Source: Deinococcus cellulosilyticus NBRC 106333 = KACC 11606 (GTDB lineage: Bacteria; Deinococcota; Deinococci; Deinococcales; Deinococcaceae). Taken from it: a stretch of DNA of 64,000 bases. The position numbers and the translations under genes were made by a program. This document shows, piece by piece, positions 3,317 to 63,292 of this stretch; position 1 is the first letter of the stretch, and each line of letters opens with the position of its first letter. Location of the stretch: the NCBI RefSeq assembly GCF_007990775.1, contig NZ_BJXB01000015.1:89053-153052 (forward strand), written 5' to 3'. The notes beneath the pieces are model-generated. The model had not been told where the DNA came from and ran no database searches. It saw only the letters and a program-made list of their open reading frames with translations.

Positions 3317-4630
3317 GTGGCTTTTCGGGACGTTCTCGAAATTGAAGTGATTGCAGGCAACGGTGGCGATGGTGCCATGAGCTTCCACCGGGCCAAATAC
3401 ATGCCCAAAGGTGGCCCGGACGGTGGTCACGGGGGCAAGGGCGGCAGTGTGTTCCTGCGGGCGGTCAACAACGTCAGCAGTCTGGACACATTGATCGGCA
3501 GACGCAAATACAAGGCCAGCAACGGCTGGTACGGTGAAGGCCGCCTCAGAAACGGCAAAGACGGCGAGGACATGGTCATTGATGTGCCCGTCGGAACCAC
3601 CGCCTTCGATGTGGAATCGGGCCGTGTGATTGCCGACCTGACCGAAGTCGGACAGGTCAAACTGGTCGCCAAGGGCGGATCGGGCGGACGCGGAAACAGC
3701 GTGTTCGTGACCCCCACCCGCCAGGCCCCCAGATTCGCAGAACTCGGGACCAAAGGGGAAACCCGCAAGATCCGTCTGGAACTGCGTCTGATTGCAGATG
3801 TGGGGCTCGTGGGCTACCCCAACGCCGGAAAATCCAGCCTGCTTGCCAGACTGTCCCGCGCCAATCCCGAAATCGCCGATTATCCGTTCACCACCCTGAG
3901 CCCCATTCTCGGTGTGGTGACCCGTGAAGACCAGGAAGACCAGCGTTTCACCCTGGCAGACATCCCCGGCATCATCGAAGGGGCCTCTGAAGGCAAAGGG
4001 CTGGGCCTGGAGTTCCTGCGCCACATCAGCCGCACCCGACTGCTGGTGTACGTGCTGGCCGGAGATCAGGACCCGGTGGGCAACCTGGAAAGCCTGCAGA
4101 CCGAGTTGCAGAGCTACGACCCCAGCCTGCTGGACGCTGCCGCCTGCATCGTGCTGAACAAAATCGACCTGATCGAAGAAGACGTGCAGGAGATGATCGA
4201 GGAAGAGTTGCAGGAATTCGGTCTCCCGGTGCTGAAAATCAGTGCCCTGGAAGAAATCGGCCTTGACCAGCTCAAAGAAACCCTCTTTGACCTGCTGCCC
4301 TCCCGTGAACTGTGGCGTGAAACCCACACCCTGGAAGAAGAACCCGAAGTGGTCCGCATCGAGCCCCTGCGCATCGAACGCCACGAGGACATCATCCCGG
4401 GAGACAACGAATACGAAGAGGAAATCGAAATCGTCTGGGAGGTGCTCGGAGGGGGCTTTGCAGAACGTCTGGCCCGCTTCTCCCGTCACCTCGACGACGC
4501 TGCAGAATACCTGCAGGCCTACTTCAAACGGGAAGGTCTCTTCAACGCCCTCAAACGTGCTGGAGCCAAACAGGGCGACACCGTGGAAATCGGCATCATG
4601 AAGTTCGAGTACTTCGAGGACGAGAACTGA
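3317..4630 (+). CDS. obg: GTPase Obg/CgtA
   Basis: Gly-rich Obg fold N-terminus (GGDGAMSF...[14 protein letters not shown]), G domain with [11 protein letters not shown], and a C-terminal extension. GTG start after an AAGAGGTGAAG ribosome-binding site. Confidence 0.9.
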
Positions 4631-5356: not shown

Positions 5357-6622
5357 ATGGAACGAACCCCCAAGAGCAAACCGAAGCAGCAGTGGCGCAT
5401 CTGGCGCACCGTTCAACTGACCAGCCTGATGCTGGCCGCCAGTGGCCTCCTGGGTTTTGCCCTGATGAGTGCCCAGGGCATCACCGGGAAGCGTGCAGGT
5501 CTGGTCACCGCCAGTGGTGAAGCGCCCAGTTTCACGGTGTTGCTTGCCGGTCTGGAAGCGTCTTACTGTGCCTGGGCCACCCCCACAGCTCCGGCCCGCA
5601 AGTGCACGCCTGAGGAAGCGGTGGACCGCAACAAGGTGGTGGACGGCATGCACACCGACACCATCATGCTGGCGACCTTCAACAAGACCAACGTGCAGAT
5701 CCTCAACATTCCCCGGGACACCCAGGCCGAGGGAACCTACCGCAAGATCAACTCCTCTTTCAAGATCGGGGGTCCCGAGCAACTCCTCGGAGATGTGGAG
5801 ACCCTGATCGGGCAGCGCATCGATTACTACGCCATTGTCCGTCTGGACTTTGTCGGAGATGTGATTGATCGGCTGGGAGGGCTGGATGTGGTGGCTCCGG
5901 CAGATGTGGCCTTCGATGACCGTGCTGCAGACCTGCACCTGCACCTGAAAGCCGGACCCCATCACCTGAATGGCAAAGATGCGGTGGCCTTCCTGCGCAT
6001 GCGCAAAGCTCCAGGGTGGGGAGATGACTATGGCCGCATTGACCGCCAGAAGCTCGCCATTGCCCAGTTGCTGGACAAATTGCGCAGCTCCCAGGGGCTC
6101 ACGGCACTGCCAGGCATCCTCTCACAGTTCAACAACGGGGTGATCACCAATGCCGATCCCAGCATGATCGATGCGATGGTGCCCTTCCTGAAGAGTTACC
6201 GCCTGCAGATGGCCACCCTTCCGACCAATGAAATTCCCGGTTCCAGCAACCTGGCGGTGGACCGTGCAGCTTTAGACCTCATGAATGCCCCCACCCAGCA
6301 GGTGGCCCAGAGTGCCATTCCAGAATCGCCCGTGCGCATTGTGGATGGCAGTGGCACCGGACTGGGGAAGAAGCTTTCAAACTACCTCTCCCAGCAGGGG
6401 TATAAGATTTCTCAGGTGGAAGAGCAGACAGCCAGTTCCGAACAGAGCTCTGTGGCCACCCGCAATGAGGTGAGCGATGCCGAGCAGGTGTCCACCCGCC
6501 TCAACCTGCCCAGAATTCAGACCCTGCGCCTTCCTGTAGAGTACGGCGAGGTGGTGGTGTTTCTCGGGCAGGACGCCAACAGCAAATACGCAGCACTCGC
6601 TGCCCTCCCCGGAACAGAGTAG
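5357..6622 (+). CDS. LytR-CpsA-Psr (LCP) family cell-envelope phosphotransferase
   Basis: N-terminal TM anchor, LCP catalytic core (MHTDTIMLATFNK...NIPRDT...INSSF) and a C-terminal LytR_C-like region. ATG preferred over the TTG 3 nt upstream. Confidence 0.8.
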   Translation: MERTPKSKPKQQWRIWRTVQLTSLMLAASGLLGFALMSAQGITGKRAGLVTASGEAPSFTVLLAGLEASYCAWATPTAPARKCTPEEAVDRNKVVDGMHTDTIMLATFNKTNVQILNIPRDTQAEGTYRKINSSFKIGGPEQLLGDVETLIGQRIDYYAIVRLDFVGDVIDRLGGLDVVAPADVAFDDRAADLHLHLKAGPHHLNGKDAVAFLRMRKAPGWGDDYGRIDRQKLAIAQLLDKLRSSQGLTALPGILSQFNNGVITNADPSMIDAMVPFLKSYRLQMATLPTNEIPGSSNLAVDRAALDLMNAPTQQVAQSAIPESPVRIVDGSGTGLGKKLSNYLSQQGYKISQVEEQTASSEQSSVATRNEVSDAEQVSTRLNLPRIQTLRLPVEYGEVVVFLGQDANSKYAALAALPGTE

Positions 6623-6717: not shown

Positions 6718-7053
6718 ATGCAAGACAGAGAACTGATTCAACTGATTGTGGATGCCGCAAAAGACAAAAGAGCCGAAGATGTGGTGGTCTTAGACCTCCA
6801 GCACGTGAGCAGCACCCTCGATTACTTCATCATCTGCACCGCCAGTGCAGGGCTGCAGATCAACGCTGTACAGAATGCTGTGCGCGAGGCCACCAAGGAA
6901 AAAGGCGTTCATGCCCTTGGAATTGAAGGCCCCAGCGACCGCTGGATTCTGATCAACTTCGGCACGGTGATCGTGCACGTCATGACGAAAGAGGCTCGTG
7001 ACTATTATGACCTGGAAGGTCTCTGGTCTGATGCCCAGCACGTTGCAGTCTAG
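6718..7053 (+). CDS. rsfS: Ribosomal silencing factor RsfS (Iojap)
   Basis: MQDRELIQLIVDAAKDKRAEDVVVLDL...DYFIICTA...WILINFGTVIVHVM is the RsfS signature. Start chosen at the internal ATG of track ORF 6682..7053. The C-terminus overlaps the convergent kinase gene. Confidence 0.75.
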   Translation: MQDRELIQLIVDAAKDKRAEDVVVLDLQHVSSTLDYFIICTASAGLQINAVQNAVREATKEKGVHALGIEGPSDRWILINFGTVIVHVMTKEARDYYDLEGLWSDAQHVAV

Positions 7054-55763: not shown

Positions 55764-55851
<88 letters not shown>

Positions 55852-58511: not shown

Positions 58512-59911
58512 AGCAGTCCAGCGTCATTGACCCGGTTGTTCTGCAAGGTGATGGTTTTGCGCGTTTTCAGGACCCGCAGTTCCACTTTTCCTGAAGGAAG
58601 CTGGGTGAATCCGAAATATCCCGTTGCATCCGTAACGGTGCGGGCCACCAGACGACCCGATTTCCAGAGTTCCACAGCCACCCCAGACGTCTCCTTGCCT
58701 TTCAATCGGCCTTTTAAAGAGGTGCTGGGCAGAGGGGCCACATCAAAGGCCTCACCTGCGGGCAGCAGGTTTTTCAGCCCCTCGTATTCGGTGGTCACAA
58801 CAGGATTGGACATGTAGTTCCCGAGGGTCGGGAAACGGTAAGAGTAACCCGCCCATCCCATCCCTGCCTCCAGGGCTTTCTGGGTCTGGGCCTGAATGCC
58901 AGCAAAATCATTGAGGTACCAGGCGATGCCAGACGCATTCACTCCAGCCTGTTTCGCTGCAAAATCCACCCACCCTGCGTACCACTGGTCCTGCGGGGCT
59001 TTGCTCTGGCGTTTGTAGTTCATCATCACGTTCAGCTCCAGATAGCCTTCTCTCAGCCACTGGGGCCAGTTCTGCAAAACCTCGCCATAAGTGCGGGTGG
59101 TTTTGAACTCTTCTGTGGTCTTCGGTGCAGCCCCGTAAGTGATGGTGGCCGCACTGAACCACGCTCTGGGCTTCACGCTTTTGACCTCCAGAAAGAGGTG
59201 TTTGACCAGCAGAGACACCTGTTCCCTTCTCCAGTCGCTCCATTTCCGGTCCTGGGGAATGGGCACACTGGTGGCCCCGGTTTCCCTGAAGTACCTGGAG
59301 AGCGAATAGGGATTGTATCCCCAGATGGGAGCACTGATCTTGACCGGATCAGGATACCGGATGCGGTCCAGCATGATGCCATCGAGTTCATAATTCTGGG
59401 CCAGGCTGCGCAGACCATCGGCAAAGAACTTCACCACCCCGGGATGGGCGAGGTCAAAGTAATAGTCTCTGCCGGTGTAGGCCTCACCTGCATTGTTGAA
59501 GGTCAGCCAGGTGTCTGCAAACTCATCCAGACCGTGGGCATTGATGGGATGAAGGGGGTTCTGGGGAGGGGTCACCTCACTGTTGGTCATCCCGTGAATG
59601 ATCACCCAGGCGTGCACCTGCATGCCTGCTTTGTGGGCTTCACGGATCAGGACGTCCAGAGGATCAAACCCTCTGGGCATGGCAGGATCTTCCGTCACCG
59701 GGAAGGTGCTTTTCAGGCAGTAGCAATCTGCCCGCCTCACCACCTGGGGAAAAAGGGTGTTGAGGCCCATGGTTCGGGCATCCTGCACCAGTTTCCTGAT
59801 TTCCGTTTCGGTTTTGAAACCTGGACCAAAAGCGTCCACCCACAGGCCCCGAAGGGGTGCAGCAGCAGCGGTGGAGAGCAAAGCAGACAGAAGGAGCACG
59901 ATGCGTTTCAT
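58508..59911 (-). CDS. Secreted glycoside-hydrolase-like TIM-barrel protein (GHL10/DUF187-type) with a C-terminal beta-sandwich domain
   Basis: Signal peptide [19 protein letters not shown], a GHL10-like core (...[10 protein letters not shown]...[10 protein letters not shown]...), and a C-terminal CarbopepD_reg-like segment. Confidence 0.55.
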
Positions 59912-60065
59912 GGTGTCTGGGTCAGTATACGGGCTGCCTGTGAAAATTGGCCTTAAGGTTTGCAGGCCCTTTCAACACAAATGTGCACTTCCGGGAAAGT
60001 GTGCTATAATTGCAAGGCTTATTCTGGGCCGAAGAGGCTCAGGACTCCAAGGGAGGCTTAAGAAC

Positions 60066-60287
60066 ATGGCTAAAGTCTGCGAACTTTGCGGAAAAGGACC
60101 CGTCGTGGTGAACAGTGTCATCCGTCGTGGTAAGGCAAAAAAAGATGGCGGTGTGGGTCGTAAAACCACCGGCATCACCAAAACCCGTCAGCTGCCCAAC
60201 CTGCAGCGTGTGACCCTGCGCCGTGGTGAAGCCACCCTGCGCCTGCGTGTCTGCACCAAGTGCCTGAAGAGCGCCCACACCCTCTAA
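60066..60287 (+). CDS. rpmB: 50S ribosomal protein L28
   Basis: [18 protein letters not shown]...CTKCLKS matches L28. An extended -10 promoter TGcTATAAT lies at about 60005-60013, and a GGGAGG ribosome-binding site precedes the ATG. Confidence 0.9.
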
Positions 60288-60347: not shown

Positions 60348-60439
60348 AGGCAGACCATTGCTTAACTGAAAACGCAGATGCACAGCGCTGCGTTTTTTTC
60401 TATTGTTGAAATGAAAAAACCAGTAAAGGACAATGGAAC

Positions 60440-61171
60440 ATGCCCAAACTCAATCAAATTATCGCTGTGGAAAAATCAGTCAAAAGCCGCTCTTTTCAGG
60501 AACTCACTGAGGCGCATCACGCCCTGCAGAAACCCACCCTGCTTGCGGGCATCTCCCGCACCTACAGACCCAAAGATGAAGAGGGAGAGCAACTGCCTCC
60601 CGAGTCCACCCGTGTGCAGGTGAAAGCAGAGGAGATCATTCAGCGCACCTCACAGATCCTCTCCAATCTTTTTGATGTGACTGCCACCAAAGACTGGACC
60701 AACTGTGAAGCCAGAGCCAATGTGGTGGTCGGGGAACAGGTTCTGCTGAAAGACGTTCCCGTGAGCTATCTGCTTTTCCTGGAAAAACAACTGGTGGATC
60801 TGGTGACCTTTGTGCGTAAGCTGCCTGTGCTGGACGCCTCCGAAAGCTGGTCTTTCGACCCTGGTGCAGACTGCTACGCCACAGAACCCATCCAGACGGT
60901 GCGCACCAAGAAAATCCCACGCAACCACGTCAAAGCAGAGGCCACCGACAAGCACCCCGCCCAGGTGGAGGTCTACTACGAGGATGTGACTGTGGGTTAC
61001 TGGCGCACCATCAAATTCTCTGGAGCCCTCCCTGCCCAGCGGGTCCATGAGCTTCTGGGTCGCATCCAGAAGTTGCAACAGGCCGTCAAATTTGCCCGTG
61101 AAGAAGCCAACGGCGTGGAGGCAAAAGAGCAGAAGGTTGGAGAAAAGATCTTCAATTACCTCTTCGGTTGA
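60440..61171 (+). CDS. Hypothetical protein of 243 aa with no recognisable domain
   Basis: Clean ORF with a plausible ribosome-binding site. It lies immediately upstream of the tRNA-like ncRNA locus. Confidence 0.5.
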   Translation: MPKLNQIIAVEKSVKSRSFQELTEAHHALQKPTLLAGISRTYRPKDEEGEQLPPESTRVQVKAEEIIQRTSQILSNLFDVTATKDWTNCEARANVVVGEQVLLKDVPVSYLLFLEKQLVDLVTFVRKLPVLDASESWSFDPGADCYATEPIQTVRTKKIPRNHVKAEATDKHPAQVEVYYEDVTVGYWRTIKFSGALPAQRVHELLGRIQKLQQAVKFAREEANGVEAKEQKVGEKIFNYLFG

Positions 61172-61228
61172 TCTGGCCTACGCCGTTTGATGAATGCCCG
61201 GGGTCTGGCCCACCTCTATAATGGGTTC

Positions 61229-61595
61229 TGGAGTACCAGGCTCAGTCTGAACTTCAAGCTCACCGGAGCGAGGTGCACAGTGCAGGTTCGACTCCTGCCC
61301 CTGCCACTCCTGGCAGGGTGGCCCAACGGCAGAGGCACACCCAACTCCACCATCAACTTCAAGTTCTTGCTCCAGACTCCGTATTCGCTGCTGAACGTCA
61401 AATCGAATGCCAATGGTCGGAACTTGCTGGATATGGGTTCAAATCTCATCTGGCCCGCCACTCATGGGCCGGTGGCCTAACGGTAAGGCACAGCAACCTC
61501 AAGAATGAACCAGAGGCTTAAACGTGTTGATGTGTGCAATTGAGCAGCACACCCTGGCTCCGAATCAGGCTACGATTCGGGGCCGCTTTTTTGGA
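61229..61595 (+). ncRNA. Candidate structured ncRNA of about 370 nt containing two circularly permuted tRNA-like cloverleaf modules (Y-RNA-like tRNA mimic), with its own -10 box and terminator
   Basis: Perfect TATAAT at 61217-61222. Module 1 spans 61265-61348: GGAG-cga-GGTG / CACAGT / T-arm GCAGG-TTCGACT-CCTGC / CCCTGCC-A-ctcct-GGCAGGG / TG / D-arm GCC-CAACGGCAGA-GGC / A / CACC-caa-CTCC. Module 2 spans 61424-61496: TTGCTG / GAT / T-arm ATGGG-TTCAAAT-CTCAT / CTGGCCC-G-CCActcat-GGGCCGG / TG / D-arm GCC-TAACGGTAA-GGC / A / CAGCAA. The terminator GGCTCCGAATC-aggctac-GATTCGGGGCC plus TTTTTT lies at 61555-61595. Confidence 0.4.
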
Positions 61596-61615
61596 CCCCC
61601 TGACAGATTCTGAGC

Positions 61616-62116
61616 TCAGGCTTCCAGGGTGTTGCGCGGTGCTTCAGGCTTTCTGGCGAACAGACTGGAGGCCATCAGCAGAATGGTCCCAGAGACAATG
61701 CAGATGTCTGCAAGGTTGAAAATGGGAAAGGGCTGCCCATAAATCCTCTGTGTGACCCAGGACAATTGGTGGGAATAAAACATGTCAATCACCTTGCCAT
61801 ACCAGAAAACATCAATGGCGTTTCCCACAGCCCCCACAGCGATCAGGAGCAAACTCCAGAAGGTGATGCCCTGGGGTTTCTGTTTTGAAAGATAAAACAG
61901 AAGGCCAATTCCCACCCCAACACGAAGCACAGCCAGGAAGACAGTGGCTCCAGCAAACAGGTTCCACGCTGCCCCTGTGTTAAAGGTGAGGATAAGGGAC
62001 AGGACGTTCTGAATCACGGGTGTGTAGGTATCGGTCTGCAGGTGACCCAGAGACCAGACTTTAAGCCACTGGTCCAGTCCAATCAATACAGCGAAAATCA
62101 AGAGGGCAACGGGCAT
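61616..62116 (-). CDS. lspA: Lipoprotein signal peptidase (signal peptidase II)
   Basis: Conserved LspA blocks ...NTGAAW..., ...VGNAIDV..., ...FPIFNLAD... and four TM segments. Confidence 0.8.
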   Translation of the reverse strand: MPVALLIFAVLIGLDQWLKVWSLGHLQTDTYTPVIQNVLSLILTFNTGAAWNLFAGATVFLAVLRVGVGIGLLFYLSKQKPQGITFWSLLLIAVGAVGNAIDVFWYGKVIDMFYSHQLSWVTQRIYGQPFPIFNLADICIVSGTILLMASSLFARKPEAPRNTLEA

Positions 62117-62190: not shown

Positions 62191-62694
62191 TCAGGCTTCT
62201 GGCGTGGTTTGCTTTTTGGGCTCAGGTTTCTTGCTGAAGAGGCTGGCTGCAATCAGCAAAATGGTTCCCACCACCACACAGGAATCTGCAATGTTGAAAA
62301 TGGGGAAGTCCTGCTGATGGATCTTCTGGGTGACCCAGGAGAGCTGGTGGGAGTAGAACATGTCCACCACTTTGCCCAGGCGAATGCCATCAATGGCATT
62401 GCCCACTGCTCCAGCAGCGATCAGAACCAGAGACCAGAAGGTGATGCCTCTGGGTTTTTCCCTCCAGAGGTAGACCAGAATCCCGATTCCCACCACCAGG
62501 CGCAGCACAGCCAGAATTTTGGTGGCTCCACCCAGCATTCCCCAGGCGGCACCTGTGTTGTAGACCAGGGTCAGGGAGAGCACATTGTCAATCAGGGGTT
62601 TCAGAACGTAAGGCTGCAGGTTTCCGACCGACCAGGCTTTAAGCCACTGGTCAAGACCAATCAGCACGGCAAAGACAATCAGAGCAAGCGGCAT
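62191..62694 (-). CDS. lspA: Lipoprotein signal peptidase, second tandem paralog
   Basis: Same conserved blocks (NTGAAW, GNAIDG, FPIFNIAD). It shares colinear conserved blocks with the adjacent copy. Start at MPLALIVF. Confidence 0.8.
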   Translation of the reverse strand: MPLALIVFAVLIGLDQWLKAWSVGNLQPYVLKPLIDNVLSLTLVYNTGAAWGMLGGATKILAVLRLVVGIGILVYLWREKPRGITFWSLVLIAAGAVGNAIDGIRLGKVVDMFYSHQLSWVTQKIHQQDFPIFNIADSCVVVGTILLIAASLFSKKPEPKKQTTPEA

Positions 62695-62824
62695 CCCTAG
62701 AAGTATACCGGAGCCAAAAATGAAACGGGTAGGGAAGATCACTGGCAGTGTGCAGCGCAGCCTGAGCTGCGTCAAATCCGTACAAAACAACTTTCCGTCA
62801 GAGCAAAAATGTTAGATTAAACCC

Positions 62825-63292
62825 ATGGCGAAAGTGGAGTCCTTCGATTTAGACCACACCAGGGTTCGCGCTCCATACGTGCGCATTGCTGGCGTGAAAC
62901 ACACCCCGAAAGGGGACACCATCACCAAATATGACCTGCGTCTGACCCAGCCCAATCAGGAAGCCATCGATTCCGCAACCCTACACACCCTGGAGCACCT
63001 GCTTGCAGGCTACCTGAGAGACCACCTGGAGAATGTGCTGGATGTGTCCCCCATGGGCTGCCGCACGGGCATGTACATGGCTGTGATCGCTGAACCTGCT
63101 CCTGACGATGTGCGAGCAGCTTTCGAGAAATCCCTTGAAAATGTGGCCCAGCACGGTGAGAAGATTCCCGGAGTCAGTGAACTGGAATGTGGCAACTACC
63201 GGGACCATGACCTGCAAAATGCCAGAGCGGTGGCCAGAAAAGTGCTGGACCAGGGCCTGATTGTGCAGGAGACCATCAACATTCAAAGATGA
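62825..63292 (+). CDS. luxS: S-ribosylhomocysteine lyase LuxS
   Basis: The metal-binding HTLEHL motif and the conserved Cys region ...SPMGCRTG... support the call. Confidence 0.9.
   Translation: MAKVESFDLDHTRVRAPYVRIAGVKHTPKGDTITKYDLRLTQPNQEAIDSATLHTLEHLLAGYLRDHLENVLDVSPMGCRTGMYMAVIAEPAPDDVRAAFEKSLENVAQHGEKIPGVSELECGNYRDHDLQNARAVARKVLDQGLIVQETINIQR

What the first reader, a model, noticed from the sequence alone, without database searches (positions are those of the whole stretch)
61187..61600. Non-coding transcription unit with two circularly permuted tRNA-like cloverleaf modules (candidate Y-RNA-like tRNA mimic or new RNA class)
No convincing protein frame exists between the 243-aa hypothetical gene and lspA, but the region has a perfect TATAAT at 61217-61222 and a strong intrinsic terminator at 61555-61595.

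Twice within it, a canonical T-arm (GCAGG-TTCGACT-CCTGC; ATGGG-TTCAAAT-CTCAT) is followed directly by a 7-nt 3' acceptor strand and a discriminator. A 5-nt loop comes next, then the perfectly complementary 7-nt 5' acceptor strand, the usual two nucleotides (TG), and a canonical D-arm (GCC-CAACGGCAGA-GGC; GCC-TAACGGTAA-GGC).

The flanking sequences pair into an anticodon-stem analog (GGAG/GGTG with CACC/CTCC; TTGCTG with CAGCAA). Each module is therefore a complete tRNA cloverleaf permuted at the anticodon loop, with a capped acceptor stem. This is the architecture described for the tRNA-mimic domain of bacterial Y RNAs (YrlA). The second module even encodes CCA.

I see no Rsr/Ro (TROVE-domain) gene in the window; the upstream gene is an unknown 243-aa protein. 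The two modules also share the motifs AACTTCAAG and AACCTCAAG in their flanks.
Basis: partly seen in the sequence, partly recalled or inferred. Interest (0 to 1): 0.88.

Follow-up and report, generated by a model that had tools for sequence, protein, structure and literature searches.

The report
Twin tRNA-mimic RNA partnered with DUF7873
The region encodes a real, roughly 330-base structured non-coding RNA containing two tRNA look-alike domains, and this RNA is found next to the same very highly conserved protein of unknown function (DUF7873) in many bacterial phyla and in large phages, a pairing I could not find in Rfam or in the searched literature.

Summary
Window 61230-61595 (+) is a separate non-coding transcription unit, with a -10 box at 61217-61222 and an intrinsic terminator at 61555-61595. 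It contains two complete cloverleaves, each circularly permuted, with a 7-bp acceptor stem closed by a loop.

On a 29-sequence alignment spanning several phyla, 61 base pairs in 12 helices are 96.5% paired. Compensatory double changes occur in 53 of the 61 pairs, against 19-28 in slid controls.

The "unknown 243-aa gene" upstream is Pfam DUF7873. It is about 75-80% identical between Deinococcus, Chloroflexi, Actinobacteria, Acidobacteria and others. The RNA lies directly downstream of this gene in 75 of 80 bacterial genomes and in 74 of 78 viral contigs. In actinophages and a Rhizobium jumbo phage the pair sits inside tRNA gene arrays.

The RNA also carries Y-U-N-A motifs spaced every 6 nt.

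No Rfam family reaches its threshold: YrlA scores 19-37 bits against a gathering score of 69. No Ro/Rsr gene lies nearby. Nothing turned up in the searched literature.

The best reading is a new RNA-protein module built on YrlA-type tRNA mimicry and tied to tRNA or translation biology. The mechanism is inferred, not shown.

The parts
60440..61171 (+). DUF7873 protein gene (243 aa), the conserved genetic partner of the RNA
   Evidence: Pfam PF25283, E 2.4e-118. There are 7207 homologues, and the closest 120 are 75-95% identical across phyla. The RNA follows this gene in 75/80 genomes and 74/78 viral contigs.
61217..61222 (+). -10 promoter box TATAAT; the inferred transcription start is about 61230
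   Evidence: Read directly from the sequence. A TANNNT box lies 12-15 nt upstream of the conserved GGAG in all 13 non-actinobacterial rows that have one, out of 29 rows. No -35 box was called.
61230..61595 (+). The whole RNA, about 330 nt of structured body plus terminator
   Evidence: The nhmmer profile matches full length in 75/80 loci. It occurs once in the window.
61230..61235 (+). H1 5' strand GGAGTA, pairing with 61368-61373 TGCTCC; this helix closes domain 1
   Evidence: Columns 9-14 pair with 222-227; 92% paired, 4 of 6 pairs with double changes.
61238..61264 (+). 5' hexamer repeats: four units of Y-U-N-A-R-N (GCTCAG TCTGAA CTTCAA GCTCAC)
   Evidence: U and A are invariant every 6 nt. 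Lag-6 autocorrelation is 0.425 against 0.262 in shuffles, z=22, over 95 unique sequences. No covarying partner was found.
61265..61275 (+). 5' strand of the anticodon-stem analogue of module 1 (GGAG cga GGTG), pairing with 61338-61348 (CACC caa CTCC)
   Evidence: Read from the sequence. The equivalent 5-bp stem is fully paired in 70% of sequences against 28% when partners are shuffled, and the sequences differ between lineages.
61282..61298 (+). T-arm of module 1
   Evidence: 5 bp plus a TTCGACT loop; 98.6% paired, 3 pairs with double changes.
61299..61318 (+). Capped 7-bp acceptor stem of module 1 (CCCTGCC / A CTCCT / GGCAGGG)
   Evidence: All 7 pairs show double changes, 98.5% paired. The stem is always 7 bp and stacks directly on the T-arm.
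61321..61336 (+). D-arm of module 1 (3-bp stem, 10-nt loop, class-II/tRNA-Leu-like), preceded by U8-G9
   Evidence: Nearly invariant GCCCAA..GGCAGAGGC. Phage versions read GGCGGAATTGGTAGACGC, as in the window's own tRNA-Leu.
61355..61385 (+). Conserved middle segment: further Y-U-N-A units flanking the H1 3' strand (61368-61373), then ...GTATT
   Evidence: Column information is about 2 bits at T213, A215, T219, T233, A235, A238 and T239.
61387..61401 (+). 5' strands of long-range helices Pa (GCTGCT) and Pb (CGTCAA), separated by GAA
   Evidence: They pair with 61543-61548 and 61527-61532. All 12 pairs show double changes, 99.4% paired.
61409..61417 (+). Pc 5' strand (GCC..TGGT), pairing with 61509-61517
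   Evidence: All 7 pairs show double changes, 93-95% paired.
61425..61429 (+). Anticodon-stem analogue of module 2 (TGCTG), pairing with 61491-61495 (CAGCA)
   Evidence: All 5 pairs show double changes, 82.6% paired on a MAFFT alignment.
61433..61449 (+). T-arm of module 2
   Evidence: 99.3% paired, 4 pairs with double changes.
61450..61472 (+). Capped 7-bp acceptor stem of module 2, with G-CCA (61457-61460) directly after the 3' strand
   Evidence: All 7 pairs show double changes, 99.5% paired. N-CCA occupies this position in 57 of 171 unique modules; chance would give about 2%.
61475..61489 (+). D-arm of module 2 (4-bp stem, canonical class-I type), preceded by U8-G9
   Evidence: 99.1% paired, 3 pairs with double changes.
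61496..61524 (+). Conserved 3' segment: two U-N-A units, then the Pc 3' strand, then CTTAAACG
   Evidence: T400/A402, T407-G408-A409 and T420-A424 are near-invariant.
61527..61548 (+). 3' strands of Pb and Pa, enclosing the conserved internal loop TGTGCAATTG (61533-61542)
61555..61595 (+). Intrinsic terminator
   Evidence: 12-bp stem, 7 G-C pairs, T-run. A comparable GC-rich hairpin follows the RNA in the other loci shown.

Best explanation
Window 61230-61595 encodes a stable, highly structured non-coding RNA of about 330 nt. With the adjacent DUF7873 gene it forms a self-contained two-gene module, most likely a ribonucleoprotein.

The RNA has two domains. In each, a long covarying stem ends in a four-way junction that reproduces a tRNA: anticodon-stem analogue, T-arm, 7-bp acceptor stem and D-arm, with U8, G18G19 and the T-loop in place. 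The topology is circularly permuted and the acceptor end is closed by a variable loop. This is the same design as the tRNA-like domain of YrlA.

Single-stranded Y-U-N-A units spaced every 6 nt flank both domains. I infer that they are the periodic binding sites for the protein, possibly as an oligomer.

The two L-shaped tRNA mimics would present tRNA elbows and acceptor ends to enzymes that recognise tRNA shape: RNase P, CCA-adding enzyme, TruB/Dus-type modifiers, and possibly synthetases or EF-Tu. In many lineages the capping loop is probably opened by RNase P with 3' trimming to leave an N-CCA end, as shown experimentally for M. smegmatis YrlA.

Because phages place the module inside their tRNA gene arrays, its role is most likely in tRNA or translation homeostasis.

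What is shown: the RNA family, its structure, its linkage to DUF7873 and its tRNA-array context. What is inferred: protein-RNA binding, processing and function.
For: **Non-coding and autonomous.** The region has a -10 box and a terminator. A TANNNT box lies upstream of the GGAG in 13 of 29 sequences, all of them non-actinobacterial. The only ORF through the region is a spurious 97-aa frame that reads across the tRNA-like arms.

**Structure.**
- RNAalifold predicts 55 pairs, 46 of them with compensatory changes.
- My 12-helix model is 96.5% paired. It has 53 of 61 pairs with double changes, against 19-28 when partners are slid, and 0 of 500 shuffles reach the observed values.
- The AC1 stem is supported separately.

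**tRNA features beyond the arms**.
- Position 8 is U in all 171 unique modules.
- Position +1 is G in 84%.
- N-CCA follows the acceptor 3' strand in 33%.
- Position -1 is U in 48%, and in 67% of the modules my rough sorter assigned to module 2.
- The acceptor stem is always exactly 7 bp.

**Linkage to DUF7873.**
- The RNA is on the same strand, within a few hundred nt downstream of the gene (about 0.5 and 1.4 kb in L001 and L016), in 75 of 80 genomes. These span Deinococcota, Chloroflexota, Actinomycetota, Acidobacteriota, Armatimonadota, Myxococcota and Cyanobacteriota.
- It is present in 74 of 78 IMG/VR contigs.
- It is present in Arthrobacter, Gordonia, Vibrio, Ralstonia, Klebsiella, Rhizobium and Pseudanabaena phages.
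- No other gene is conserved nearby.

**tRNA context.** The pair sits inside the tRNA arrays of phages Mimi, Phendrix and RHph_TM30. Real tRNAs lie within 3 kb in 38 of 78 viral loci.

**Hexamer periodicity.**

**Precedent.** M. smegmatis YrlA has a 7-bp acceptor stem, is cut by RNase P in vivo and in vitro, and receives CCA (PMC4201824).

**Protein.** DUF7873 gives a confident model (pLDDT 88.6). It has a conserved basic C-terminal helix motif, AVKxARxxAN. Its cross-phylum conservation is extreme.
Against: - No expression, binding or processing data exist for this RNA. The ribonucleoprotein idea rests on gene linkage only.
- The DUF7873 fold matches nothing informative, so RNA binding is unproven.
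- About 5-7% of loci have no RNA within the fetched flanks (Herpetosiphon L005, L006 and L013; L029; L114 and L115). In L127 the RNA lies upstream of the gene.
- In several variants the capping loop is a long helix that extends the acceptor stem, sometimes pairing the ACCA itself (L096, L143, L147). This argues against obligatory cleavage.
- Most Streptomyces copies lack CCA.
- Module 1 is replaced by a plain hairpin in some Streptomyces and is absent in Vibrio and Rhizobium phages, so two mimics are not essential.
- The covariation statistics use related sequences, so the shuffle counts are not probabilities.
Confidence: 0.55

Rival explanations
1. It is a bona fide Y RNA, a divergent double YrlA, that works with a Ro60/Rsr protein encoded elsewhere in the genome. 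In this reading DUF7873 is only a neighbour or an accessory factor.
For: YrlA is the best Rfam family on both modules (20.5 and 19.2 bits). It gives full-length alignments to domain 2 in other loci (37.1, 33.6 and 32.9 bits). The stem-plus-tRNA-module layout is the same. The consensus middle segment GCCGAACG fits the GNCGAAN0-1G Ro-binding motif. Deinococcus species are known to have Rsr (PMC4201824). In Gordonia phage Mareelih a Ro-like gene sits next to a tRNA-Asn/tmRNA array like the one in the Phendrix locus that carries DUF7873.
Against: All scores are far below the gathering score of 69. The motif is not conserved: GCTGAACG in the window, GATCG in many Streptomyces, and AGTAAATG in the phage L082. 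No Ro homologue lies in the 64-kb window or in the flanks of loci L001-L088 (tblastn with Bxz1 gp220; Pfam on window ORFs of 450 aa or more). The 357 phage records with a Ro-like gene include no Arthrobacter, Rhizobium, Klebsiella, Serratia, Ralstonia or Pseudanabaena phage, although phages of those hosts carry DUF7873 and the RNA. Only about 5% of bacteria have Ro (PMC4201824).
Confidence: 0.1
2. It is a precursor that RNase P and 3' trimming cut into two or three base-paired pieces. The freed CCA ends are aminoacylated, and the particle acts on the ribosome or with EF-Tu. This would be analogous to two-piece (permuted) tmRNA with SmpB, with DUF7873 in the SmpB role.
For: The gene order T-arm / acceptor 3' strand / N-CCA / spacer / acceptor 5' strand / D region is exactly that of permuted ssrA genes. 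The Rfam permuted, beta and cyano tmRNA models give weak partial hits on the modules. N-CCA is enriched about 20-fold. Module 1 has a near-invariant discriminator A and a tRNA-Leu-type D-arm. From my own knowledge, LeuRS identity in E. coli does not require the anticodon. The extreme conservation of the protein would fit a ribosome-associated factor.
Against: There is no conserved reading frame or stop codon after either module. The downstream segments are paired and covary. Neither acceptor stem has a G3-U70 pair. The anticodon-stem analogues continue into long helices that would not fit a decoding site. CCA is absent in two thirds of modules, and some loops are closed helices. The host and some of these phages already have a normal tmRNA.
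Confidence: 0.12
3. It is a conflict element. Either the RNA is a decoy that soaks up defence or toxin enzymes acting on tRNA acceptor ends or elbows, or it is an RNA antitoxin that neutralises DUF7873, in the manner of a type III toxin-antitoxin system.
For: The distribution is patchy and looks horizontally transferred, with presence on large phages and some plasmids. It is a compact protein-plus-structured-RNA cassette with no other partner. One weak PADLOC hit to KwaB was found (E 4.6e-4, Vibrio phage protein only).
Against: There are no PADLOC, PHROGs or NCBIfam hits for the window protein. The 75-80% identity across phyla is the opposite of the fast evolution typical of conflict genes. 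The window neighbours are housekeeping genes: rpmB, lspA and luxS. The RNA has its own promoter downstream of the gene and is not a tandem-repeat antitoxin.
Confidence: 0.1
4. It consists of decayed tRNA genes or an integration-site remnant with no function of its own, or merely a 3'-UTR element of the DUF7873 mRNA.
For: ARAGORN and one phage annotation mistake parts of it for tRNAs. In actinobacteria no separate -10 box is visible, so co-transcription with the gene is possible.
Against: The whole 330 nt is conserved across phyla with compensatory changes, including parts that are not tRNA-like. The permuted topology cannot arise from simple decay. The unit has its own promoter and terminator in most lineages.
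Confidence: 0.02

Closest known systems
YrlA / bacterial Y RNAs (Rfam RF02553) with Ro60/Rsr
   Same: The RNA has a stem carrying a circularly permuted tRNA-like module (T-arm, loop-capped acceptor stem, D-arm) with canonical T-loop and D-loop residues. The 7-bp acceptor version (M. smegmatis) is cut by RNase P and receives CCA. Both occur in bacteria and phages.
   Different: This RNA has two modules in one 330-nt transcript. It carries 6-nt periodic Y-U-N-A repeats. Its outer stems and conserved loops are different, and the Ro-binding motif is not conserved. It is linked to DUF7873 rather than to a TROVE protein. It scores 19-37 bits against a gathering score of 69.
Two-piece (circularly permuted) tmRNA with SmpB
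   Same: The gene order is permuted in the same way: T-arm, acceptor 3' strand, CCA, spacer, acceptor 5' strand. Both have a dedicated small protein partner and occur in phage tRNA arrays.
   Different: There is no tag reading frame, no pseudoknot series and no G3-U70 pair. Full D-arms and anticodon-stem analogues are present. There are two tRNA-like domains. A normal tmRNA coexists in the same phage (L082).
Periodic RNA binders: TRAP (NAG repeats) and Cas7-family crRNA backbones (6-nt register)
   Same: Short motifs repeat at a fixed 6-nt spacing in single-stranded RNA, which is the signature of a repeating protein surface. The Foldseek top list for DUF7873 is made of Cas7 chains.
tRNA-like elements made from longer transcripts (mascRNA, viral tRNA-like structures)
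   Same: They are recognised by tRNA-processing enzymes because of their L-shape mimicry.
   Different: Those have normal tRNA topology and are eukaryotic or from RNA viruses. None is paired with a dedicated conserved protein gene.

Membership tests
YrlA / Y RNA (RF02553) | Covariance-model score at or above the Rfam gathering score (69 bits) | tested here: not met
   Window modules score 20.5 and 19.2 bits. The best relative scores 37.1 bits.
YrlA / Y RNA (RF02553) | Encoded next to a Ro60/Rsr (TROVE) gene | tested here: not met
   No TROVE domain among the ten window ORFs of 450 aa or more that were scanned. tblastn with Bxz1 Ro finds nothing in the window or in loci L001-L088. The rest of the source genome could not be searched.
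YrlA / Y RNA (RF02553) | tRNA-like module: T-arm, capped acceptor stem, 2 nt, D-arm, enclosed by a stem | tested here: met
   The module is present twice.
YrlA / Y RNA (RF02553) | Conserved Ro-binding helix motif GNCGAAN0-1G | tested here: inconclusive
   The consensus GCCGAACG fits, but the window has GCTGAACG and many lineages differ. A 5-letter motif is expected by chance about 0.3 times in 330 nt.
YrlA / Y RNA (RF02553) | Physically bound by Ro60/Rsr | not testable with these tools
   Needs immunoprecipitation.
tRNA (RF00005) | Contiguous cloverleaf with an anticodon loop, detected by tRNA finders | tested here: not met
   ARAGORN and Rfam find only tRNA-Leu at 55764-55850. The modules are permuted and have no anticodon loop.
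tmRNA, including permuted forms (RF00023, RF04321, RF01850, RF01851) | Model score above threshold, a tag reading frame, and a G3-U70 alanine identity pair | tested here: not met
   Only partial hits of 19-25 bits against 47-84. There is no conserved frame, and the segments after the modules are paired. No G3-U70 pair.
Pfam DUF7873 (the partner protein) | Full-length match above the gathering score | tested here: met
   394.7 bits against 27, residues 1-242 of 244.
Cas7 / RAMP backbone proteins (considered for DUF7873) | Significant structural or sequence similarity to Cas7 | tested here: not met

The most novel reading that the evidence does not exclude
DUF7873 and this RNA form a previously unrecognised, ancient ribonucleoprotein class. 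It is shared by at least seven bacterial phyla and by jumbo and tRNA-rich phages. In this reading a repeating protein surface reads Y-U-N-A units every 6 nt and scaffolds one or two permuted tRNA mimics. The acceptor ends of those mimics are opened by RNase P and carry CCA. The particle acts directly on the translation or tRNA-maturation machinery, and does so independently of Ro60.
Probability: 0.4. Interest if true: 0.88.

Novelty: new variant of a known kind. Interest (0 to 1): 0.8.

Why it matters
Bacterial tRNA-mimic RNAs have so far been tied to Ro60, which only about 5% of bacteria have. This finding shows the same permuted tRNA-mimic design used twice in one larger RNA. That RNA is wedded to a different protein, which is unusually conserved and has no recognisable fold relatives.

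It gives DUF7873 a concrete and testable partner; the family has about 2,500 clusters at 50% identity. It explains unannotated gaps of 450-1,100 nt, and mis-called "tRNAs", next to this gene in phage genomes. It also points to an unexplored function that large phages carry together with their tRNA sets.

The 6-nt periodic motif and the N-CCA in the capping loops lead directly to experiments on binding, RNase P cleavage and aminoacylation.

Tried and rejected
- **Protein coding.** The only ORFs (97 aa at 61187-61480 on +; 81 and 82 aa in other frames) read through the tRNA-like arms and were rejected.
- **Canonical tRNA or tmRNA, or any Rfam family.** Nothing reaches threshold.
- **Single-sequence folding.** It is uninformative for the whole RNA (z = -1.33). 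Only the comparative analysis revealed the long-range helices.
- **A local hairpin GUGUUG/CAGCAC in the 3' region.** This was my first reading. It is superseded by the long-range helices Pa and Pb, which covary.
- **Pairing of the 5' hexamer repeats with the UCAG units of the middle segment, including a pseudoknot with H1.** It works in some sequences but fails in the window, and no covarying diagonal was found.
- **GGAG/CUCC of H1 as a Shine-Dalgarno / anti-Shine-Dalgarno mimic.** Actinophage versions read AGAG/CUCU, so the pair covaries and the sequence identity is not kept.
- **Other protein-family libraries.** NCBIfam, PHROGs, PADLOC, PDB sequence search and BFVD gave nothing useful. The afdb50 library was unavailable.
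- **A third conserved gene in the neighbourhood.** None exists in bacterial or viral loci. The apparent clusters are antisense shadow ORFs.
- **Correlation between encoded CCA in the modules and in host tRNA genes.** There are too few nearby tRNAs, and the phages contradict it.
- **The first AlphaFold run with 15 near-identical sequences.** It failed (pLDDT 46). A diverse 69-sequence alignment fixed it.
- **Literature.** Six searches found nothing on DUF7873 or on such an RNA.
Full report
**1. What is in the window**

A perfect TATAAT lies at 61217-61222. An intrinsic terminator lies at 61555-61595 (12-bp stem, T-run).

ARAGORN and Rfam at gathering thresholds find only tRNA-Leu at 55764-55850 in the whole 64 kb. 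The ORFs through the region, including a 97-aa frame that starts at 61187, read straight across the tRNA-like arms and are not credible.

With permissive thresholds, the best Rfam family on both modules is YrlA, at 20.5 and 19.2 bits against a gathering score of 69. The region is not a member of that family by score.

**2. The upstream gene is the key**

The 243-aa protein is Pfam DUF7873 (E 2.4e-118).
- It has 7207 homologues at 90% clustering. The nearest 120 are 75-95% identical even though they come from Deinococcus, Chloroflexia, Ktedonobacteria and Dactylosporangium.
- The family comprises about 2,500 clusters at 50% identity, nearly all of them about 245 aa long.

I fetched 80 genomic loci from GTDB representatives. 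They cover Deinococcota, Chloroflexota, Actinomycetota (including many Streptomyces), Acidobacteriota, Armatimonadota, Myxococcota and Cyanobacteriota.
- T-loop motifs appear about 100 and 250 nt after the gene's stop codon in almost all of these loci.
- An nhmmer profile built from the window RNA finds the RNA on the same strand downstream of the gene in 75 of 80 loci. In all but two (L001 and L016) it lies within about 150 nt of the stop codon. Most matches are full length; 12 Streptomyces loci match only domain 2.
- The exceptions are three Herpetosiphon genomes, L029, and one 1.1-kb contig.
- No other gene is conserved in these neighbourhoods.

**3. Structure**

I aligned 29 sequences that are less than 85% identical to each other (A2). 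RNAalifold on this alignment and my own scan for stacked covarying diagonals agree on the following layout.

Domain 1:
- The 5'-terminal GGAGYR pairs with YRCUCC in the middle of the RNA (helix H1; window 61230-35 with 61368-73).
- Inside this helix lie four Y-U-N-A-R-N hexamers, then an anticodon-stem analogue, T-arm 1, a 7-bp capped acceptor stem and D-arm 1.

Domain 2:
- Three long-range helices (Pa, Pb, Pc) lead to anticodon-stem analogue 2, T-arm 2, a 7-bp capped acceptor stem and D-arm 2.

Counting my 12-helix, 61-pair model on A2 gives these figures:
- 96.5% of cells are paired, against 39-47% when partners are slid by 1-3 columns.
- 53 pairs have changes on both sides, against 19-28 in the slid controls.
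- 0 of 500 shuffles reach any of the observed measures.

MAFFT misaligned the anticodon-stem analogue of module 1, so I tested it separately. Five of five pairs form in 70% of sequences, against 28% when partners are shuffled, and the stem sequences differ between lineages. One search gives the window coordinates of all helices.

Both modules carry the residues that build a tRNA elbow. Module 2 has a canonical class-I D-arm (U8, A14, G18G19, A21, A26). Module 1 has a 3-bp D-stem with a long loop. In phage versions this arm reads GGCGGAATTGGTAGACGC, as in the window's own tRNA-Leu.

**4. Extra tRNA-like details**

I examined 171 unique modules from bacteria and viruses.
- The acceptor stem is always 7 bp and abuts the T-arm.
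- Position 8 is always U.
- Position +1 is G in 84%.
- The triplet directly after the discriminator is CCA in 33% (57 of 171). CCA is the commonest triplet there, whereas chance would give about 2%.
- The base before +1 is U in 48%.

The window has GCCA in module 2 (61457-61460). M. smegmatis YrlA is the one YrlA with a 7-bp acceptor stem. It is cleaved by RNase P in vivo and in vitro and acquires CCA (PMC4201824). Processing at 61312 and 61466 is therefore plausible.

It cannot be universal, however. Most Streptomyces copies lack CCA. In some viral copies the "loop" is a long helix that continues the acceptor stem (L096, L143, L147). In L166 and L168 it contains a further nested tRNA-like element.

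**5. A 6-nt register**

The 5' segment shows invariant U and A at columns 21/23, 27/29, 34/36 and 40/42. Over 95 unique 5' regions, identity at lag 6 is 0.425 against 0.262 in shuffles (z = 22), with harmonics at lags 12 and 18.

Similar units follow each module. More distant phage RNAs keep the period while changing the unit, for example CGUUAG in phiRSL1.

I found no covarying partner for these segments. I therefore read them as single-stranded sites for a repeating protein surface. This is an inference.

**6. Phages**

DUF7873 is encoded by 75-81 phage records: Vibrio, Gordonia, Rhizobium, Klebsiella/Serratia jumbo phages, Arthrobacter, Pseudanabaena, Ralstonia phiRSL1 and Prevotella Lak megaphages.
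- In Arthrobacter phage Mimi, Gordonia phage Phendrix and Rhizobium phage RHph_TM30 the gene sits inside the tRNA gene array.
- In most phage loci checked, an unannotated gap of 450-1,100 nt follows the gene and contains the RNA. Mimi (E 2e-47), Phendrix (E 2e-38), phiRSL1, Klebsiella LPKP23 and Pam2 have two modules. Vibrio D472 and RHph_TM30 have one. I found no module downstream of the gene in the AT-rich Lak-A1 locus.
- In LPKP23, part of the RNA is annotated as "tRNA-Stop(tta)".
- Among 78 IMG/VR contigs with enough downstream sequence, 74 have at least one module within 900 nt and 42 have two. Real tRNAs lie within 3 kb in 38 of them.
- No other protein is conserved in these viral loci.

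**7. Relation to Ro/Y RNA**

Chen et al. searched for YrlA only next to TROVE genes, so this RNA would have escaped their search. I took the Ro-like protein of mycobacteriophage Bxz1 (gp220) as a probe.
- It has no tblastn match in the window or in any locus flank.
- None of the ten window ORFs of 450 aa or more that I scanned has a TROVE domain.
- The 357 phage records with a Ro-like gene are from Mycobacterium, Streptomyces, Gordonia, Microbacterium and a few others. They include no Arthrobacter, Rhizobium, Klebsiella, Serratia, Ralstonia or Pseudanabaena phage, although phages of those hosts carry DUF7873 and the RNA.
- The Ro-binding motif GNCGAAN0-1G matches the consensus middle segment but is not conserved across lineages.

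I therefore do not file the RNA as a Y RNA. I could not search the rest of the source genome for rsr.

**8. The protein**

With a diverse 69-sequence alignment, AlphaFold gives a confident model (pLDDT 88.6, pTM 0.74). It consists of long helices packed against a beta-sheet that includes a long hairpin.
- NCBIfam, PHROGs, PADLOC and Pfam (beyond DUF7873 itself) add nothing.

**9. Variants that inform function**

- Some Streptomyces copies replace module 1 with a plain hairpin but keep H1, the hexamers and domain 2.
- Distant phages keep only one module.
- L016 has two tandem RNA copies.
- In L127 the RNA precedes the gene.

The constant core is therefore DUF7873, the hexamer repeats and at least one permuted tRNA mimic.

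**10. Promoters**

A TANNNT box lies 12-15 nt upstream of the GGAG in 13 of the 29 aligned sequences, all 13 of them non-actinobacterial. It is often accompanied by a TTGxxx box about 17 nt further upstream. In actinobacteria the GGAG directly follows the terminator hairpin of the gene, so co-transcription or a different promoter type is possible there.

**11. Verdict**

The evidence points away from membership in the Ro/Y RNA system and towards a distinct, widespread RNA-protein module. That module is absent from Rfam 15 and from the searched literature.

The proposed mechanism is protein binding to the hexamers, display of tRNA mimics to tRNA enzymes, and RNase P/CCA processing in many lineages. 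It is inferred from anatomy, context and the YrlA precedent, and it needs the experiments listed above.

Noticed in passing
window 61616-62116 (-) and 62191-62790 (-): Two tandem lspA (signal peptidase II, Peptidase_A8) paralogues lie immediately downstream of the RNA, followed by luxS at 62825-63292 (+).
   Followed up: no
L082 2072-2600 (Gordonia phage Phendrix, MN096369): Rfam finds a full-length tmRNA (89 bits) between tRNA-Asn and tRNA-Arg. The GenBank record annotates nothing there.
   Followed up: no
L085 3513-3596 (Klebsiella phage LPKP23): The feature annotated as 'tRNA-TERM / tRNA-Stop(tta)' overlaps the DUF7873-associated RNA between its two tRNA-like modules. It is probably a mis-call rather than a suppressor tRNA.
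   Followed up: partly
L033, L036, L040, L044, L069, L073 and others, about 6753-6845 (Streptomyces): ARAGORN-89-nt 'tRNA-Phe/Leu/Ala' genes. These combine the terminator of the DUF7873 gene, the hexamer repeats (read as an anticodon loop CUGAAGC) and T-arm 1. They are false positives that may contaminate tRNA annotations.
   Followed up: partly
L166 about 3796-3935 and L168 (IMG/VR contigs): The capping loop of module 1 holds a nested, normally ordered tRNA-like element (acceptor GAACAAT/ATTGTTC, D-arm, T-arm). Its acceptor stem is coaxial with that of module 1, giving a third tRNA mimic in one RNA.
   Followed up: partly
L042, L059, L043, L047 and similar Streptomyces loci, about 6770-7040: This is a short form of the RNA. 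Module 1 is replaced by a simple hairpin, while H1, the hexamers and domain 2 are kept.
   Followed up: partly
L016 6124-6506 and 6736-7063 (Ktedonobacterales MAG): Two tandem copies of the RNA lie about 0.8-1.4 kb downstream of the DUF7873 gene, with an inserted ORF-like stretch in between.
   Followed up: no
L090 (Gordonia phage Mareelih) compared with L082 (Phendrix): In Mareelih a Ro-like gene sits just upstream of a tRNA-Asn / tmRNA / tRNA-Arg / tRNA-Gln array. Phendrix has a similar run of genes (tRNA-Asn, tmRNA, tRNA-Arg, tRNA-Gln) and carries DUF7873 plus the RNA about 1.4 kb further along the same array. I did not check whether Phendrix also has a Ro gene. The two RNA-protein systems may therefore occupy equivalent niches in related phages.
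   Followed up: partly
L009-L020 (Dactylosporangium), about 5500-5950: A tRNA-Leu gene lies about 50-500 nt upstream of the DUF7873 gene, directly upstream in several of the Dactylosporangium genomes. This echoes the phage tRNA-array context and the tRNA-Leu-like D-arm of module 1.
   Followed up: no
window 59757-60287 (+): The listed 176-aa ORF is an over-extension. Only residues 106-172 match ribosomal protein L28, so rpmB is about 60072-60287. It is followed by hairpins before the DUF7873 promoter-like site at 60406-60434.
   Followed up: no
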